Shown here piece by piece: positions 26,259 through 31,327 of a stretch of 56,510 bases of DNA. This DNA is from Candidatus Omnitrophota bacterium (GTDB lineage: Bacteria > Omnitrophota > Gorgyraeia > Zapsychrales > JAHFFX01): the NCBI GenBank assembly GCA_023247755.1, contig JAHFFX010000001.1, forward strand, positions 1 to 56,510. Reading direction: 5' to 3'. The position numbers were made by a program, and so were the translations under genes. Within the stretch, counting starts at the first letter, position 1. The number at the start of each line of letters is the position of its first letter. Below the pieces are notes generated by a model that searched no databases, was not told the origin of the DNA, and was given only the letters and a program-made list of their open reading frames with translations.

Positions 26259-26900
26259 TTAATCGATGAGCCCTTTGGTTGAAGGAACACCCTTGCGTCG
26301 CGGATCGACCTGGGTCGCCTGGTCCATCGCCATGCCCAGCGATTTGAACACCGTTTCCGCGACCGTATGCGTGTCCGGATTGGACCCTCGCGGGATATGA
26401 ACGGTCACGATCAGGTTCGCGCCCAGTTGTTTCGCGAACGATTCCAGGAAGTGTTCCAGGTGCTGAAGGGTGAACCCGTCCTCAGCATCTTTCATGGGGC
26501 TTATGCCCGCTTTGTCCAGGTTCAGCCGCAGGTGCCCCCGTCCGCTGATATCGATGACCGAATGTCCCAGCGTGTCCTCCATGGGCGCAAAACCGGAACC
26601 GAACCTTCGGATGCCCTTTTTATCCTTGAGGGCGTCCTTGAAGGCCTTTCCCAGAACGATGCCGATGTCCTCGTTCGTGTGGTGAATGTCGATGTGGGTG
26701 TCGCCCTTGACATCGAGCGCGAGATCGAAATATCCATGAAAACAGAAAAGGTCGAGCATGTGGCTCAAGAGTCCGATCGGAGTCTTGAGCTTGGTGACGC
26801 CCTTTCCGTCAACGTTGAGCTCTCCTTTGATGACGGTTTCGGAACTTTTTCTTTCGAATCTGGCTTTACGTGTTTTGGCGGCCATATCAATCCTTTCCAT
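26259..26900 (-). CDS. hisB: imidazoleglycerol-phosphate dehydratase
   Basis: 213 aa with ETVIKGELNVDG, GDTHIDIHHTNEDIGI and the HH/E metal motifs. The start may be the internal MAAKT. Confidence 0.95.
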   Translation of the reverse strand: MERIDMAAKTRKARFERKSSETVIKGELNVDGKGVTKLKTPIGLLSHMLDLFCFHGYFDLALDVKGDTHIDIHHTNEDIGIVLGKAFKDALKDKKGIRRFGSGFAPMEDTLGHSVIDISGRGHLRLNLDKAGISPMKDAEDGFTLQHLEHFLESFAKQLGANLIVTVHIPRGSNPDTHTVAETVFKSLGMAMDQATQVDPRRKGVPSTKGLID

Positions 26901-28131
26901 TGAACCGGACCTGCACCGAGGCCGAGTGCTTCGGCAGGCCCTCGATGCCGGCGATTTTATCGAGCGGCTCGCGGATCTTTTCGAGCGCTTTTTTTGAATA
27001 AGCGATCACGTGACTCGTTTTCATGAAATCGGAAAGACACAATCCCGAAAAAAAGCGTGCCGTTCCCAGGGTCGGCAGAACATGGCTCGGCCCCGCCACG
27101 TAATCTCCCACCGCCGTTGGGCTGTAAGGGCCGAGAAAGATCGCCCCGGCGTTGGTGATCTTCTTGGCGATGCTGAGCGGATTATTGGTCAGCACCTGGA
27201 CGTGTTCGGGCGCGATGCGGTTGGTGACCTCCACCGCTTCCTCCATGTTCTTTACAGGAATGCAGTAGCCGCGGCCGTTGAGCACCCGCGCGCGTTTTCT
27301 CACTTGCCGGATAAGTTGTTTCGACGGGCTCACCAGGATGGAAAGCCCTCCCACGTGCTCCATCTGCGCTTCGAGGTCGGCGATGACGAACTCCGGATCG
27401 CTCAAGCGGTTGGCGATGACGACCAGCTCTGTGGGCCCGGCGAGCATGTCGATGTCGACATATCCGAACAACTGGCGTTTGGCTTCGGTGACGTACATGT
27501 TGCCGGGTCCGATGACCTTGTCCACCTTGGGAATGGTCCTGGTGCCCAAGGCGAGGGCCGCGACCGCCTGCGCCCCGCCCACTTTATAAATTTCGTTCAC
27601 CTTAAGAAGGTTCGCCACCGCGAGGATATACGGATTGATGTGCCCGTTCTTATCGGGCGGGGTGGCGATCGCGATGCGCTTGACGCCGGCCACCTTTGCG
27701 GGAATGGCCGTCATGTAAACCGAGGAAACGAGCGGCGCCGTGCCCGCCGGAATATAAATCCCCACGGAATCGAGCGGCAGGATGTTCTCCTTAAGAACGA
27801 TCCCCTCGCCGTCCTTGATGCGGGCGGGTTTCTTCAGTTGTTTGCGGTAGAACGCTTCGACGTTGTTGATGATGAGCTTCAGCGAGCCAACGAAATCGCT
27901 GGTGATGTTCTGGAACGCCCCGCTGATCTCGCTTTCGTCGGCGCGGATCTGCCGCGCCGTCATCTTGCACTTGTCGAAGCGCCGCGTGTATTTGAGAACG
28001 GCGTCATCCCCGCTGTTTTTCACATCGGCGATGATCTGCCGGACCCGTTCTTCCACGTGTTTTTTACGGGAGAAAAGATTCCGGTTGTAAAGTTTTTCGA
28101 TGCCTTTGCCGTCCGGCTTGAGAATTTTCAT
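26887..28131 (-). CDS. hisD: histidinol dehydrogenase
   Basis: 414 aa with GIYIPAGTAPLVSSVYMTAIPAKVAGV, AGPTELVVIA and EAQMEH motifs. Confidence 0.96.
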   Translation of the reverse strand: MKILKPDGKGIEKLYNRNLFSRKKHVEERVRQIIADVKNSGDDAVLKYTRRFDKCKMTARQIRADESEISGAFQNITSDFVGSLKLIINNVEAFYRKQLKKPARIKDGEGIVLKENILPLDSVGIYIPAGTAPLVSSVYMTAIPAKVAGVKRIAIATPPDKNGHINPYILAVANLLKVNEIYKVGGAQAVAALALGTRTIPKVDKVIGPGNMYVTEAKRQLFGYVDIDMLAGPTELVVIANRLSDPEFVIADLEAQMEHVGGLSILVSPSKQLIRQVRKRARVLNGRGYCIPVKNMEEAVEVTNRIAPEHVQVLTNNPLSIAKKITNAGAIFLGPYSPTAVGDYVAGPSHVLPTLGTARFFSGLCLSDFMKTSHVIAYSKKALEKIREPLDKIAGIEGLPKHSASVQVRFNGKD

Positions 28132-30761
28132 GATGGGAATGCCTGTTTAATGATGTCCTTGCCGGCGCTCATTGCTGCCGCGATCTTTTGCGGACTTTTG
28201 CTGCCCGCCTGGGCGAGATCGGGGCGCCCGCCGCCGCTGCCCTCGATCAGCGGCGCCACCTTCTTGACCAGATCATTGGCGCGAATGCCTTTGGCGACCA
28301 GGTCCTCGGTCACGCTGATGAGGATGAACGCGTTATCTTCGTATTGACTGCCCAGCAGGACCACCGAGGGTTTTGCTTTTTGCCGGATCAGGTCCGAGAC
28401 CTGCCGCAGGACGTTGGCGTCCGTGTCGGTAAACGACGCCGTAACGATCTTGGCCCCGTTGACCGATTCGGCCTGGCTGATGAGCGTCTCCACGGAATTG
28501 CGAATGCTTTCGAACTGATATCTCTCCAATTGTTTTTCCAAATGTTTCAGGTGCTTGGCGACCTGGATCGTCCGTTGCACGATTTCCGTTGGGGGAGCTT
28601 TCAAGGTCTGCGCGACTTCTTCAAGCTGGGCTTCCCGGGCCCGGCTGTATTCCCAGGCGCCGGTGCCCGTAACCGCCTCGATGCGCCGGATGCCCTGGGC
28701 GACGGAACTCTCGGAGGTGATCCTAAACAGCCCGATCTGTCCGGTCATCTTCAAATGGGTCCCGCCGCAGAGCTCTTTCGAATAGCCGTCGATGGAAACG
28801 ACCCGCACGCGGTCCTTGTATTTCTCGGCGAAGAACGCCATGGCGCCGGTCTCCTTGGCTTTTTTCAGATCCATCTCTTCTTTTTGAACGGGATCACAAT
28901 TCATGATCTGGGTGTTGATGATGGATTCAATTTGTAAAATTTCATCCCGGCTGACGCCCTTGGGATGCGTAAAGTCGAAGCGCAGGCGGTTCTCATCCAC
29001 GAGCGAACCCTGCTGTTGAACATGATGGCCGAGCACCTGCCGCAGCGCGGCCTGCAGAAGGTGGGTCGCCGTATGGTTGCGCATGATCTTCAAGCGGCGT
29101 TCATCATCGATCTGCGTCTGCACAAGGTCGTCCAACTTGAAAGCGCCCCCCTCAACTTTCCCGGAATGGATGATCACGTCCGCGATCTTCTGCGTGTCGG
29201 TGACCCGGATGACCGCATCGTCCCGGATGATGCTTCCAGTATCCCCTACTTGACCGCCCGATTCGGCGTAAAACGGGGTTTTGTCGAGGACGATCTTTAT
29301 CTCGGCGCCTTGCTTCACCTCTTTGACATCTTCGTTGCCGACAAAGAGCTTGAGGACCTTGCTGGTGCTGACGAATTGTTCGTAACCCAGGAACTGGGTC
29401 TTGGGGACGTTGAGGTTGAGTTGCGCGTCCGCGAACACGTCGCCGGTCATTTTACTTGCGCCTCTGGAACGTTTTTTCTCTTCATCCATACCTTCGTTAA
29501 AAACTTTCTTTGCTGATTCTATATTGCCTGAAGATATTCCTATGTTTTTTGCAGTATCCAGAATGGACATGACTGGTACTCCAAGTGTACTGTAAGAAAA
29601 TAAAATAATTTTTCCAAGTTCTTTTGGATCATCTTGATGGACTCTTAACTTTGGTTCTATCAAGGGAAGTTTTTCTTCAAGTAATTTAATAACAGACTCT
29701 TCAGTGCTTTTTATGATGCTTGAAATGCTGTTGATTTTTGAAGTCAATTCAGGATACGGTCCATTCATTATGTTGATTACTGTTGGGACCAGCTTGTAGA
29801 TAACTGGTTTTTGTATTCCTTTCCTGACAACTATTGATGAGCATTCAACAATAAGTTTTCGTACTACATATCCCCGCCATTCGTTAGAAGGATTTACTCC
29901 GTCGTTTATACCAAAAACAATTGCGCGGATATGATCAGCAATAACCCTTTTTTCTTCTAAGCTAAGGGAATTATTCGTTTCTTCATCAATTAATTTAATA
30001 ATGGGGCCGAATAAATCTGTATCATAATTATTCTTCTTACCTTGTATTACCGCGACCAAGCGCTCGAGACCCATCCCAGTATCGATGTTCTTCGCCGGAA
30101 GCGGTTCGAGAACGCCGCCTTCCTTGCGGTTGAATTGCGTGAAGACGAGGTTCCAGACCTCGGCGAAGCGGCCGCAGTCGCAGGTCGGGTCGCATTTGTC
30201 TTTTTTCGGACAGTCGGGATTGACGCCGAAATCATAGAAGATCTCCGAGCACGGCCCGCAGGGACCGTTAGGGCCTTTTTCTTTGGCCTCGGCGGGCCAG
30301 AAATTGTCCTTGTCGCCGAGCTTGAGGATCCTTTCTTTCGGGAGTCCAATGGTCTTATGCCAGACGTTTTCGGCTTCAGAATCTTCCTTATAGACAGAGA
30401 CCCATAGTTTATCCTTCGGGATTTTGAGCACTTCAGTGAAGAATTCCCAGGCCCATTCGATGGCCTCTTTCTTGAAATAATCGCCGAAGGAGAAGTTCCC
30501 CAGCATCTCAAAGAAGGTGTGGTGGACCGGCGTCTTTCCCACCTTCTCCAGATCATCGGTGCGCAGGCATTTCTGGCTCGAGGCGGCGCGGGTGTAACCC
30601 TCGATGTGCCCCAGGAACTGCCGCTTGAACTGCTGCATGCCGGCGGTGGTGAACAGAACCGTCGGGTCGTCCTTGGGGACAACGGAATCGCTCGCCACGA
30701 TCGTGTGCCCCTTCGCGGCGAAGAATTCCAGGAATTTTTTTCGAACTTCGTTGGCGGTCAT
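28128..30761 (-). CDS. alaS: alanine--tRNA ligase
   Basis: 877 aa. It has a class II catalytic core (FTTAGMQQFK, HHTFFEMLGNFSFGDYFK, NIDTGMGLERL), an editing domain (HTATHLL, ..CGGTH) and a C-terminal DHHA1-like C-Ala domain. It contains a compositionally aberrant central segment (see findings). Confidence 0.97.
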   Translation of the reverse strand: MTANEVRKKFLEFFAAKGHTIVASDSVVPKDDPTVLFTTAGMQQFKRQFLGHIEGYTRAASSQKCLRTDDLEKVGKTPVHHTFFEMLGNFSFGDYFKKEAIEWAWEFFTEVLKIPKDKLWVSVYKEDSEAENVWHKTIGLPKERILKLGDKDNFWPAEAKEKGPNGPCGPCSEIFYDFGVNPDCPKKDKCDPTCDCGRFAEVWNLVFTQFNRKEGGVLEPLPAKNIDTGMGLERLVAVIQGKKNNYDTDLFGPIIKLIDEETNNSLSLEEKRVIADHIRAIVFGINDGVNPSNEWRGYVVRKLIVECSSIVVRKGIQKPVIYKLVPTVINIMNGPYPELTSKINSISSIIKSTEESVIKLLEEKLPLIEPKLRVHQDDPKELGKIILFSYSTLGVPVMSILDTAKNIGISSGNIESAKKVFNEGMDEEKKRSRGASKMTGDVFADAQLNLNVPKTQFLGYEQFVSTSKVLKLFVGNEDVKEVKQGAEIKIVLDKTPFYAESGGQVGDTGSIIRDDAVIRVTDTQKIADVIIHSGKVEGGAFKLDDLVQTQIDDERRLKIMRNHTATHLLQAALRQVLGHHVQQQGSLVDENRLRFDFTHPKGVSRDEILQIESIINTQIMNCDPVQKEEMDLKKAKETGAMAFFAEKYKDRVRVVSIDGYSKELCGGTHLKMTGQIGLFRITSESSVAQGIRRIEAVTGTGAWEYSRAREAQLEEVAQTLKAPPTEIVQRTIQVAKHLKHLEKQLERYQFESIRNSVETLISQAESVNGAKIVTASFTDTDANVLRQVSDLIRQKAKPSVVLLGSQYEDNAFILISVTEDLVAKGIRANDLVKKVAPLIEGSGGGRPDLAQAGSKSPQKIAAAMSAGKDIIKQAFPS

Positions 30762-30856: not shown

Positions 30857-31327
30857 TTAAATCTTTCTTATCGCTTTCTGAATCGCTTCCACCGAAAACC
30901 CCCGCCTGGCCAGAAAGTCGAACAGGCGTTTCTTTCTCTTGAGCGGTTCCAGTCCTTGGTAACGACCCAAGCGTTTCTTGATCACTACGCTGATGAGCGC
31001 GGCCTCATCCAGGTCTTCCGCGGCCAGCGCCAATTCCTCCCGGAGGATGTCTTCGCTCACGCCTTTCTGTCGCAGCTCGAGGCGGATCCTGGTGAGTCCA
31101 AAGGGTTTGTTCAGGCGGGATTTGATCCACCAGCGCGTGAACGCCGCATCGTCCACGAACGAATGCGTCCTCAGGAATGATAATGTTCCTTCAACGATCT
31201 CCGGCGGGAAATTCTTTCGCGCCAGGCGTTCCCGGATCTCCGCCTCGCTGCGTTGCCGCACTTTGAGGAGCCGAAAGGCCGCCGTTTGGGCGCGGATGAG
31301 GAGTTCTTTGGGATCCAGCGAACCCAT
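30857..31327 (-). CDS. recX: recombination regulator RecX
   Basis: 156 aa with three-repeat helical architecture, RQRSEAEIRERLARKNFPPEIVEGTLSFLRTHSFVDDAAF and LELRQKGV. Confidence 0.85.
   Translation of the reverse strand: MGSLDPKELLIRAQTAAFRLLKVRQRSEAEIRERLARKNFPPEIVEGTLSFLRTHSFVDDAAFTRWWIKSRLNKPFGLTRIRLELRQKGVSEDILREELALAAEDLDEAALISVVIKKRLGRYQGLEPLKRKKRLFDFLARRGFSVEAIQKAIRKI

What the first reader, a model, noticed from the sequence alone, without database searches (positions are those of the whole stretch)
29460..30048. AT-rich compositional island inside alaS that coincides with the tRNA-recognition domain (mosaic gene?)
Within an otherwise GC-rich alaS, a ~590-bp stretch drops sharply in GC. 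I counted three 60-nt lines by eye:
- 29581-29640: 18/60 G+C;
- 29701-29760: 21/60 G+C;
- 29101-29160 (flank): 32/60 G+C.

The supplied ORF track has no off-frame ORFs of 60 aa or more between ~29595 and 30042, unlike the rest of the gene. That fits AT-richness.

The island maps to residues ~238-434. It starts right after the class II motif-3 region (NIDTGMGLERLVAVIQG) and ends before the editing domain, so it spans the tRNA-recognition mid-domain. The frame and the homology are both preserved (..NYDTDLF.., ..VIADHIRA.., ..DGVNPSNEWRGYVV..). However, normally conserved stretches are divergent, for example RGYVLRRILRRA-like becoming RGYVVRKLIVEC.

This pattern suggests an intragenic replacement of a whole structural domain from an AT-rich donor, or strongly relaxed or altered selection on that domain.
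Basis: seen in the sequence. Interest (0 to 1): 0.6.

Follow-up and report, generated by a model that had tools for sequence, protein, structure and literature searches.

The report
AT-rich swapped tRNA-reading domain in alaS
The only alanyl-tRNA synthetase gene of this uncultured Omnitrophota bacterium has a sharply AT-rich block that is exactly its tRNA-recognition domain, most likely a recombined-in cassette, and related genomes and a second synthetase gene (MetRS) show similar blocks.

Summary
alaS (28128-30761, minus strand, 877 aa) carries a block at 29468-30049 (codons 238-437). Its GC is 0.335 against 0.569 for the rest of the gene, and its GC3 is 0.27 against 0.75. It is the strongest intragenic composition break among about 1,770 long ORFs of this 2.4-Mb Omnitrophota MAG.

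The block is the complete helical tRNA-recognition mid-domain. It is bounded by the motif-3 end and the RSRxxSKMTG motif.

- **Shift is block-wise:** invariant and variable codons are equally AT-rich, and the equally divergent C-Ala domain stays GC-rich.
- **Source composition:** codon dialect and amino-acid composition fit a source of about 36-38% GC.
- **Domain looks functional:** it keeps 34 of 38 conserved positions and models with pLDDT 84-96. It has lost the near-universal Asp (E. coli D400) that reads G3:U70.
- **Phylogeny:** the flanks place the gene firmly in its family. The mid-domain has no relative above 48% identity anywhere.
- **Relatives:** two other lineages that group with this family by the flanking domains carry different AT-rich blocks starting at the same left boundary. 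Mid-domains are demonstrably exchanged in the order. MetRS shows the same pattern in its anticodon-binding domain.

Best reading: recurrent cassette replacement by recombination (about 0.55).

The parts
28128..30761 (-). alaS, alanine--tRNA ligase, 877 aa. It is the only AlaRS match in the 91%-complete genome. It lies in the conserved htrA-recX-alaS-hisD arrangement.
   Evidence: ORF. Pfam tRNA-synt_2c + tRNA_SAD + DHHA1. Single match in the own genome. Same gene order in the relative L067.
30051..30761 (-). Aminoacylation domain, residues 1-237. Host-type composition (GC3 0.74). 79-82% identical to same-family relatives.
   Evidence: The N+C tree places it as sister to L002 (SH-aLRT 96) plus L003 (98).
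29451..30050 (-). AT-rich island, the tRNA-recognition mid-domain, residues 238-437. GC 0.335, GC3 0.265. All-helical.
   Evidence: Change points. Collinear with A. aeolicus AlaRS 237-426. pLDDT 84-96 over about 240-430. AlaRS fragments are the top fold matches.
30036..30074 (-). Left junction, residues 230-242 (GMGLERLVA|VIQGK). GC3-rich codons switch to AT3 codons between GCG (Ala237) and GTA (Val238), directly after class II motif 3.
   Evidence: Codon print-out. The same boundary is used by AT-rich blocks in G004, P0201/L067, L025 and L013.
29442..29471 (-). Right junction, residues 431-440 (RSRGASKMTG). This motif is conserved in nearly all relatives, and composition returns to host type within it.
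   Evidence: S432, S436, M438 and G440 are invariant.
29574..29594 (-). Acceptor-stem (G3:U70 minor-groove) reading motif YSTLGVP, residues 390-396, equivalent to E. coli Y399-D400-T-Y-G403-F-P. The Asp is replaced by Ser391.
   Evidence: Alignment. Asp is present in 238 of 252 homologues. F387L, D391S and L395V are three of Q's only four departures from near-invariant mid-domain columns. The role of Asp400 is described in PMC6055181.
29883..29885 (-). Asn293 in PSNEWRGY, equivalent to E. coli Asn303 (the major-groove U70 reader). It is retained.
   Evidence: N293 is invariant in alignment A1. PMC6055181.
28131..29450 (-). Editing domain and C-Ala domain, residues 438-877. Host-type composition (GC3 0.74). 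The C-Ala part is as divergent as the island but remains GC-rich.

Best explanation
The island is a real mosaic segment. The whole tRNA-recognition mid-domain of a native, vertically inherited alaS was replaced in frame by a homologous domain from an AT-rich gene pool. That pool was most probably an unsampled low-GC (about 36-38%) Omnitrophota lineage.

The crossovers lie in the two most conserved stretches that flank the domain: the end of motif 3, and RSRxxSKMTG.

This is one instance of a recurrent process in this order. The AlaRS mid-domain behaves as an exchangeable cassette whose history is decoupled from the catalytic, editing and C-Ala domains. The anticodon-binding domain of MetRS in the same genome behaves likewise.

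**Shown:**
- the block-wise composition break;
- its coincidence with the domain borders;
- the native placement of the flanks;
- the orphan status of the domain;
- exchange of mid-domains among relatives;
- preservation of fold and of most conserved residues.

**Inferred:** the act of recombination in this lineage, its direction, and the nature of the donor.
For: 1. **Block-wise shift.** GC3 inside the island is 0.23-0.29 at variable and at invariant amino-acid sites alike. Outside it is 0.66-0.81. The C-Ala domain is as poorly conserved as the island yet keeps GC3 0.62-0.82.
2. **Source composition.** The codon dialect (TTA/CTT, ATT/ATA, GGA, GAA, AAA) matches the alaS genes of AT-rich Omnitrophota and is opposite to the rest of the gene. 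K/(K+R) = 0.72 and the FYMINK fraction = 0.67 are 3.9 and 4.8 residual SD above the expectation for a 56% GC host. They imply a source of about 36-38% GC.
3. **Native flanks.** N+C group with the same-family relatives L002 and L003 with support 96 and 98. In the mid-domain tree the sequence has no supported partner and a terminal branch of 0.69 against 0.17 in N+C.
4. **Episodic divergence.** In undisturbed pairs M is as conserved as C: L019-L020 0.83/0.83, L016-L027 0.66/0.57, L011-L013 0.70/0.64. In pairs with close flanks M falls to the 0.44 floor: Q-L002 C 0.67, L010-L014 C 0.75. So the divergence is episodic, not a constant high rate.
5. **Direct exchange in relatives.** L012 shares M with L029 (0.60, clade support 100/97). 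Its flanks group with family f5 (98), and its C identity to L029 is only 0.46.
6. **Independent AT-rich blocks.** G004 (same family) and P0201 (L067; groups with this family by its flanking domains, family not assigned) carry AT-rich blocks that begin at the same left boundary. Their mid-domains are only 45-48% identical to Q and to each other. The P0201 allele was assembled on four contigs.
7. **Loop form.** Q has the short form of the loop at residues 373-384. All the other family-group sequences with a native-looking M have the long form.
8. **Independent assembly.** The identical 877-aa protein sits on a second contig of different length in an ENA assembly.
9. **Second synthetase.** MetRS in the same genome repeats the pattern: anticodon-binding-domain GC3 0.36 against 0.81, and identity 0.48-0.53 where the catalytic domain is 0.75-0.80.
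Against: - **No donor found.**
  - The best mid-domain identity is 42-49% among 1.84 billion cluster representatives.
  - It is 48% among 117 Omnitrophota homologues.
  - No hit above 54% over residues 200-480 turned up in the 5.8-billion-cluster search.
  - Nothing closer was found in phage records, IMG/VR or the GTDB species genomes.
- **Vertical descent not rejected.** The AU test does not reject keeping Q with L002 and L003 in the mid-domain tree (p = 0.17).
- **Weak global tests.** The N, editing and C-Ala trees also reject one another (delta lnL 131-228). The M tree is rejected only 1.5-3.6 times more strongly.
- **One-sided shifts.** The GC3 shifts in relatives only go downward (-0.49 to +0.07). 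Random exchange among lineages of different GC would not predict this by itself.
- **Mechanistic difficulty.** RecA-type recombination between a GC3 0.75 recipient and a GC3 0.27 donor would find almost no stretch of nucleotide identity at the junctions (inference).
Confidence: 0.55

Rival explanations
1. In-situ compositional decay. The mid-domain was inherited vertically but sits in a segment that escapes whatever keeps this genome GC-rich. That force could be GC-biased gene conversion or selection acting through homologous recombination with conspecific alleles. The segment would escape it because it is too divergent between strains to recombine. AT-biased mutation then drives the block to the mutational equilibrium of about 35% GC, while the recombining conserved flanks stay GC-rich.
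For: - GC3 shifts in the mid-domain of relatives are always downward.
- AT-rich mid-domains sit at about 0.34-0.39 GC whatever the host GC (0.43-0.56).
- The boundaries coincide with the conserved-to-variable transitions.
- The AU test does not reject vertical placement (p = 0.17).
- In G004 the AT-rich block includes the editing domain. That domain has ordinary within-family identity (0.60-0.64), so it is AT-rich without being phylogenetically foreign.
- MetRS shows the same pattern.
Against: - The C-Ala domain is equally divergent at order level but GC-rich.
- Family members L002, L003 and L004 have equally saturated mid-domain divergence without any AT shift. Divergence and AT-richness would therefore need two separate causes.
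- Invariant codons are as AT-rich as variable ones, and the amino-acid composition has fully re-equilibrated. That requires a very long local process with knife-sharp edges.
- The family's other mid-domains are at GC3 0.45-0.57, not 0.27, so the block is not an ancestral remnant.
Confidence: 0.25
2. Assembly or binning artefact. The contig is an A-B-A chimera in which reads from a co-occurring AT-rich Omnitrophota population were joined into alaS at conserved sequence.
For: - The genome is a 232-contig MAG with 2.7% estimated contamination.
- Both junctions lie in highly conserved motifs.
- The MAG holds 42 low-GC (450-nt GC below 0.40) stretches, mostly whole-gene islands that could in principle include foreign sequence.
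- Read support could not be checked.
Against: - An A-B-A chimera needs two joins. With GC3 0.75 against 0.27, the two versions would share no k-mer of assembler length, even at the conserved motifs (inference from the codons).
- The identical 877-aa protein is on a second contig of different length (34,028 against 56,510 bp) in an ENA assembly.
- No source of the 'B' sequence exists among 15 billion proteins, although the supposed abundant donor should have been assembled too.
- Analogous AT-rich mid-domains occur in independent MAGs, one of them assembled four times.
Confidence: 0.08
3. Burst of adaptive or relaxed protein evolution confined to the mid-domain, with AT-rich rare codons selected to slow translation of this segment.
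For: - Q departs from near-invariant mid-domain columns more than any of 29 relatives (4 of 38).
- Three of the four changes cluster in the acceptor-stem reading loop.
- Residues 361-400 are only 24% identical to relatives where the relatives' consensus level is 55%.
Against: - Protein-level selection does not explain GC3 0.29 at invariant residues over 200 consecutive codons.
- The domain keeps 34 of 38 conserved positions and folds confidently, so constraint is not relaxed.
- Q's terminal branch in the mid-domain tree (0.69) is within the range of its relatives (up to 0.84).
Confidence: 0.07

Closest known systems
Mosaic chromosomal genes made by interspecies homologous recombination (penA / pbp type; e.g. 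PMC10926701, and the methods paper PMC3241670 on partial HGT)
   Same: An in-frame block inside an essential chromosomal gene carries a foreign composition. It has sharp breakpoints, native flanks and unchanged synteny.
   Different: - In penA-type mosaics the donors are identifiable close relatives, and an antibiotic supplies the selection.
- Here the block is exactly one structural domain.
- It is only 42-49% identical at the protein level to anything known.
- The difference in GC3 is 0.48.
- No donor or selective agent is known.
Horizontal transfer of whole aminoacyl-tRNA synthetase genes (established knowledge; seen here for MetRS, where four relatives are about 70% identical and the rest 43-50%)
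   Same: Synthetase genes move between lineages more readily than most informational genes. The phenomenon also affects this order of Omnitrophota.
   Different: Here only the tRNA-binding module is replaced. The catalytic, editing and C-Ala domains keep the organismal phylogeny.
Canonical bacterial AlaRS tRNA-recognition domain with the Asn303/Asp400 G3:U70 readers (E. coli 3HXU, A. aeolicus 1RIQ; PMC6055181)
   Same: - Collinear alignment with E = 2e-117 to 1RIQ.
- TM-score 0.74-0.78 to AlaRS catalytic fragments.
- The Asn303, Tyr399 and Gly403 equivalents are present.
- The genome's tRNA-Ala(GGC) and tRNA-Ala(CGC) keep G3:U70.
   Different: The Asp400 equivalent is Ser391. In E. coli, D400A and D400N lower kcat/Km about 25-fold (PMC6055181). 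Asp is present in 238 of 252 homologues, and a few other Omnitrophota AlaRS have Gly at this position.
Modular or split AlaRS (Nanoarchaeum equitans AlaRS-alpha/beta; PMC11392972)
   Same: It shows that AlaRS parts are separable modules that can be encoded and combined independently.
   Different: That case is a gene split, not an exchange of a homologous module within an intact gene. I did not analyse it here and cite it from its abstract only.

Membership tests
Bacterial class II alanyl-tRNA synthetase (AlaRS) | Domain architecture: tRNA-synt_2c (catalytic + tRNA recognition), tRNA_SAD (editing), DHHA1 (C-Ala) | tested here: met
   Precomputed Pfam hits PF01411, PF07973 and PF02272 on the exact protein.
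Bacterial class II alanyl-tRNA synthetase (AlaRS) | Catalytic fragment, including the helical mid-domain, collinear with solved AlaRS structures | tested here: met
   phmmer gives E = 2.2e-117 to 1RIQ over residues 2-429 with no large gaps in the island. In the AlphaFold model the mid-domain has pLDDT 84-96. Foldseek top hits are all AlaRS, with TM 0.74-0.81.
Bacterial class II alanyl-tRNA synthetase (AlaRS) | Asn (E. coli N303) reading U70 from the major groove | tested here: met
   N293 in PSNEWRGY is invariant in 29 sequences. Its role is described in PMC6055181.
Bacterial class II alanyl-tRNA synthetase (AlaRS) | Asp (E. coli D400) reading the 2-amino group of G3 from the minor groove | tested here: not met
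   Ser391 sits in YSTLGVP, anchored without gaps by the Tyr399, Thr, Gly403 and Pro equivalents. Asp occurs in 238 of 252 homologues. Whether Ser substitutes functionally has not been tested.
Bacterial class II alanyl-tRNA synthetase (AlaRS) | Cognate tRNA-Ala with the G3:U70 identity pair in the same genome | tested here: met
   ARAGORN finds tRNA-Ala(GGC) and tRNA-Ala(CGC), both with G3:U70 (acceptor stems read by hand).
Mosaic gene by intragenic recombination / partial HGT | Sharp in-frame break in composition and codon usage, independent of site conservation | tested here: met
Mosaic gene by intragenic recombination / partial HGT | Segment and flanks have significantly different phylogenetic placement | tested here: inconclusive
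   For this gene the flanks sit with L002/L003 (support 96 and 98) and the mid-domain is unplaced, but the AU test gives p = 0.17. For relatives the criterion is met: L012+L029 has support 100/97 in M against L012+f5 at 98 in N+C. Global AU tests are unspecific.
Mosaic gene by intragenic recombination / partial HGT | Identifiable donor lineage closer in the segment than in the flanks | tested here: not met
   Best mid-domain identity is 42-49% in every collection searched.
Mosaic gene by intragenic recombination / partial HGT | Junctions supported by reads, so that a chimeric contig is excluded | not testable with these tools
The only indirect support is the identical protein on a second ENA contig.

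The most novel reading that the evidence does not exclude
The tRNA-binding modules of aminoacyl-tRNA synthetases (the AlaRS mid-domain and the MetRS anticodon-binding domain, and perhaps others) form a pool of exchangeable, persistently AT-rich cassettes in Omnitrophota. They would turn over under diversifying selection, for example an arms race with factors that target the synthetase-tRNA interface. The cassette in this genome would read the universal G3:U70 identity pair with a non-canonical loop, Ser in place of the Asp that is otherwise conserved across all domains of life.
Probability: 0.15. Interest if true: 0.8.

Novelty: new variant of a known kind. Interest (0 to 1): 0.55.

Why it matters
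Synthetases are treated as stable markers of vertical descent, and their tRNA-recognition surfaces as among the most constrained in biology. This case has four notable features:

- A complete tRNA-recognition domain of an essential single-copy synthetase has a history and composition different from the rest of the gene.
- The same thing happened independently in related genomes, at the same boundary.
- A second synthetase in the genome shows it too.
- The imported domain lacks the Asp that reads the alanine identity pair.

If the cassette reading is right, three things follow. alaS and metG are unsafe as single-gene phylogenetic markers in such lineages. Domain-level recombination can operate at about 45% protein identity. 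Natural variants also exist for testing how G3:U70 can be read without Asp400.

Tried and rejected
- **Donor search:**
  - Exhaustive HMMER of the mid-domain against 1.84 billion representatives.
  - Region-restricted search of 5.8 billion clusters.
  - tblastn against phage records.
  - IMG/VR.
  - GTDB species genomes.
  - None gave anything above 49% identity for the mid-domain (54% over residues 200-480), so a phage or plasmid donor has no support.
- **Low conservation as the cause of the dip:** rejected. GC3 is equally low at invariant sites, and the C-Ala domain is a counter-example.
- **Ancestral remnant:** rejected. The family's other mid-domains are not AT-rich.
- **Global AU incongruence tests:** M against N+C gave p = 5e-7. 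The control showed that N, editing and C-Ala trees also reject each other, so I do not rely on this test.
- **Genome-wide scan artefacts:** many apparent 'N-terminal islands' were stop-to-stop ORFs running into the upstream gene out of frame. They were removed by requiring GC-rich flanks on both sides.
- **Mobile-element hallmarks:** there are no flanking direct or inverted repeats of note and no excess of promoter-like sites in the island.
- **Diversity-generating retroelement:** I did not pursue this beyond the repeat search. No near-identical template repeat turned up within 29200-30300, the only stretch searched; a template elsewhere in the window or genome was not looked for. The block is also four to five times longer than known variable regions (my own knowledge).
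- **Population variants:** the protein's 90% cluster has a single member, so strain-level comparison was impossible.
Full report
**1. What is there**

The window is contig C108 of a 2.42-Mb, 232-contig genome. It is 91% complete with 2.7% estimated contamination and 56.2% GC. Its AlaRS homologues are labelled Candidatus Omnitrophota.

alaS occupies 28128-30761 on the minus strand (877 aa). It sits between recX (30857-31327) and hisD (26887-28131, 4-nt overlap). A relative has the same gene order. It is the only AlaRS match in the genome.

**2. The observation**

- 18/60, 21/60 and 32/60 G+C in the three lines.
- No off-frame ORF of 60 aa or more between 29595 and 30042.

Change-point fitting puts the block at nt 29468-30049 (GC 0.335 against 0.569) and at codons 238-437 (GC3 0.265 against 0.75, LLR 77). 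GC1 and GC2 fall as well.

In a scan of about 1,770 long ORFs of the genome, this is the strongest internal AT-rich block with GC-rich codons on both sides, with LLR 74.5 against 33 for the next. Most of the genome's other 41 low-GC stretches cover whole genes.

**3. Anatomy**

The block is the helical tRNA-recognition mid-domain.
- It aligns without large gaps to A. aeolicus AlaRS residues 237-426 (E = 2e-117 for the catalytic fragment).
- AlphaFold models residues about 240-430 at pLDDT 84-96 as an all-helical domain.
- Foldseek returns only AlaRS catalytic fragments at the top, with TM 0.74-0.81.

The left edge falls between Ala237 (GCG) and Val238 (GTA), directly after motif 3 (GMGLERLVA|VIQGK). 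The right edge falls inside RSRGASKMTG, which is conserved in nearly all relatives.

There are no flanking repeats and no excess of promoter-like sites.

**4. Block-wise, not site-wise**

- Inside the island GC3 is 0.26, 0.28, 0.23 and 0.29 for columns of rising conservation. Outside it is 0.66-0.81.
- The C-Ala domain (721-877) is as divergent from relatives as the island (identity 0.33-0.46) but keeps GC3 0.62-0.82. Low constraint is therefore not the cause.
- The codon dialect of the block (TTA/CTT, ATT/ATA, GGA, GAA, AAA, ACA) is that of the alaS genes of 34-38% GC Omnitrophota. The rest of the gene uses CTG/CTC, ATC, GGC, GCC and ACC.
- The amino-acid composition of the block (K/(K+R) 0.72, FYMINK share 0.67) lies 3.9 and 4.8 residual SD above the regression on 29 relatives. 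It implies a source of about 36-38% GC.

**5. Phylogeny**

With the island removed, the gene is sister to L002 (SH-aLRT 96) and then L003 (98). Both are same-family genomes.

The mid-domain alone gives a star-like tree in which Q has no supported partner. Its terminal branch is 0.69, against 0.17 in the flanks. However, the AU test does not reject keeping Q with L002 and L003 (p = 0.17).

The best identity of the mid-domain to anything is low in every collection:
- 42-49% among 1.84 billion representatives.
- 48% among 117 Omnitrophota homologues.
- At most 43% in the GTDB species genomes.
- At most 34% in phage records, and nothing in IMG/VR.

**6. The order-wide pattern**

Mid-domain divergence is episodic.
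- **Undisturbed pairs:** M is as conserved as the C-terminal half. Examples are L019-L020 0.83/0.83, L011-L013 0.70/0.64, L016-L027 0.66/0.57 and L023-L029 0.58/0.60.
- **Pairs with closer flanks:** M sits at the floor of about 0.44. Examples are Q-L002 (C 0.67), L010-L014 (C 0.75) and L010-L024 (C 0.71).
- **A clear exchange:** L012 groups with L029 in M (support 100/97, identity 0.60). Its flanks group with family f5 (98), and its C identity to L029 is 0.46.

The global AU tests look dramatic. The control shows that N, editing and C-Ala trees also reject each other, although less strongly than they reject the M tree. I give those tests little weight.

**7. Other AT-rich blocks at the same boundary**

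- **G004 (same family):** its alaS has GC3 0.14-0.43 from residue about 241 to about 720, against about 0.5-0.7 elsewhere.
- **P0201 (L067, GCA_900206355.1):** it has GC3 0.23-0.37 over residues 241-450. That protein is recorded on four contigs. Its family was not assigned; its flanking domains resemble this family's.
- The hosts are about 45% GC.
- The three AT-rich mid-domains are only 45-48% identical to each other.
- Milder dips with the same left edge occur in L025, L013, L024 and others. Shifts are never clearly upward (-0.49 to +0.07).
- Q has the short form of the loop at residues 373-384. All the other family-group sequences with a native-looking M have the long form.

**8. A second synthetase**

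The next strongest internal island in a recognisable gene of the genome is in MetRS (C118:9312-10898). It covers the anticodon-binding domain (residues about 336-480, GC3 0.36 against 0.81).
- Against the four relatives that share this MetRS type, the catalytic domain is 75-80% identical but the anticodon-binding domain only 48-53%.
- G021 and G038 show similar dips.
- IleRS has a milder dip in its CP1 region.

Earlier notes of this scan report AT-rich in-frame patches in synthetase genes of other phyla. I treat these as unverified leads.

**9. Function of the domain**

Q keeps 34 of 38 near-invariant mid-domain columns. It is nevertheless the most deviant of 30 sequences (10.5% missed against a median of 2.6%). 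It is ordinary in N and C.

Three of the four changes (F387L, D391S, L395V) lie in the loop YSTLGVP. This loop is equivalent to E. coli Y399-D400-T-Y-G403-F-P.
- Asp400 bonds the 2-amino group of G3.
- D400A and D400N lower kcat/Km about 25-fold in E. coli.
- The paper calls Asp400, Tyr399 and Gly403 strictly conserved in the three enzymes it compares (PMC6055181).
- Asp is present in 238 of 252 homologues. A handful of other Omnitrophota enzymes have Gly there.

The Asn303 equivalent is kept. The genome's tRNA-Ala(GGC) and tRNA-Ala(CGC) have G3:U70. Since this is the only AlaRS found, the enzyme must work. How it reads G3 is an open question.

**10. Explanation**

I favour cassette replacement by recombination from an AT-rich gene pool (0.55). 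A single process plus later amelioration accounts for four things:
- the orphan, saturated mid-domains in lineages with and without AT shifts;
- the shared boundaries at conserved motifs;
- the source-like codon and amino-acid composition;
- the documented exchanges in relatives.

Its weak points are the missing donor, the non-significant AU test for this sequence, the one-sided direction of the shifts, and the mechanistic difficulty of homologous crossover between sequences so different at third positions.

The main rival is in-situ decay of a recombination-cold segment towards the mutational equilibrium (0.25).
- **For it:** it explains the one-sidedness and the roughly constant 35% GC. The AT-rich but phylogenetically ordinary editing domain of G004 also favours it.
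- **Against it:** it needs a separate cause for the divergence, and the GC-rich C-Ala domain contradicts it.

A chimeric contig (0.08) is unlikely for three reasons:
- The two versions would share no assembler-length k-mers.
- The same protein was assembled on a second contig of a different length.

**11. Novelty**

Mosaic genes and synthetase gene transfer are both known. I found no description of domain-precise, recurrent turnover of the tRNA-recognition module of AlaRS (and of MetRS), nor of a natural AlaRS lacking the Asp400 equivalent, in the literature searches I ran. I rate it a new variant of a known kind and of moderate interest.

Noticed in passing
G000 contig C118:9312-10898 (minus strand; outside the window): MetRS has an AT-rich anticodon-binding domain: residues about 336-480 have GC3 0.36 against 0.81 in the catalytic domain. 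That domain is only 48-53% identical to the four relatives whose catalytic domains are 75-80% identical. G021 (0.69 to 0.30) and G038 (0.54 to 0.23) show similar dips.
   Followed up: partly
Relatives G001-G040, MetRS loci L033-L061: MetRS identity to the query is bimodal across the order. Four genomes (three of family f1, plus G021 of f5) are at about 70%, and all the others, including four f1 members, are at 43-50%. This indicates whole-gene replacement of metG in part of the order.
   Followed up: no
G004:C5:6492-9230 (L062, L068): A same-family genome's alaS has an AT-rich block (GC3 0.14-0.43) that starts at the same post-motif-3 boundary. It runs through both the mid-domain and the editing domain to about residue 720. 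The editing domain has ordinary within-family identity (0.60-0.64).
   Followed up: partly
L067:1501-4203 (GCA_900206355.1, contig OBEQ010213748.1): AlaRS P0201 has an AT-rich mid-domain (GC3 0.23-0.37 over residues 241-450; host about 45% GC). It is 48% identical to the window's mid-domain. The protein is recorded on four contigs from NCBI, JGI and ENA.
   Followed up: partly
G000 contig C184:14465-17626 (minus strand): IleRS has a milder low-GC3 stretch (0.40-0.48 against about 0.7-0.88) in the CP1/editing insertion, ORF codons about 316-448.
   Followed up: no
G000 contigs C157:3-15062 and C73:2-22504: Giant ORFs of 5,020 and 7,501 codons, open at the contig ends, contain internal AT-rich blocks of about 180-280 codons (GC3 0.41-0.44 against 0.66-0.73).
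   Followed up: no
Proteins P0166, P0173, P0181, P0190, P0257, P0258 (Omnitrophota AlaRS homologues): Six other Omnitrophota AlaRS have Gly instead of the Asp400-equivalent (motifs such as RGTHGLS, SGTYGVS, QGTFGLP). Loss of this otherwise near-universal residue therefore recurs in the phylum.
   Followed up: no
Whole alaS, window 28128-30761: The amino-acid composition of the native N and C parts (K/(K+R) 0.66, FYMINK 0.53) fits a genome of about 47-50% GC, not 56%. GC3 is already 0.75. This suggests the lineage's GC content rose recently.
   Followed up: no
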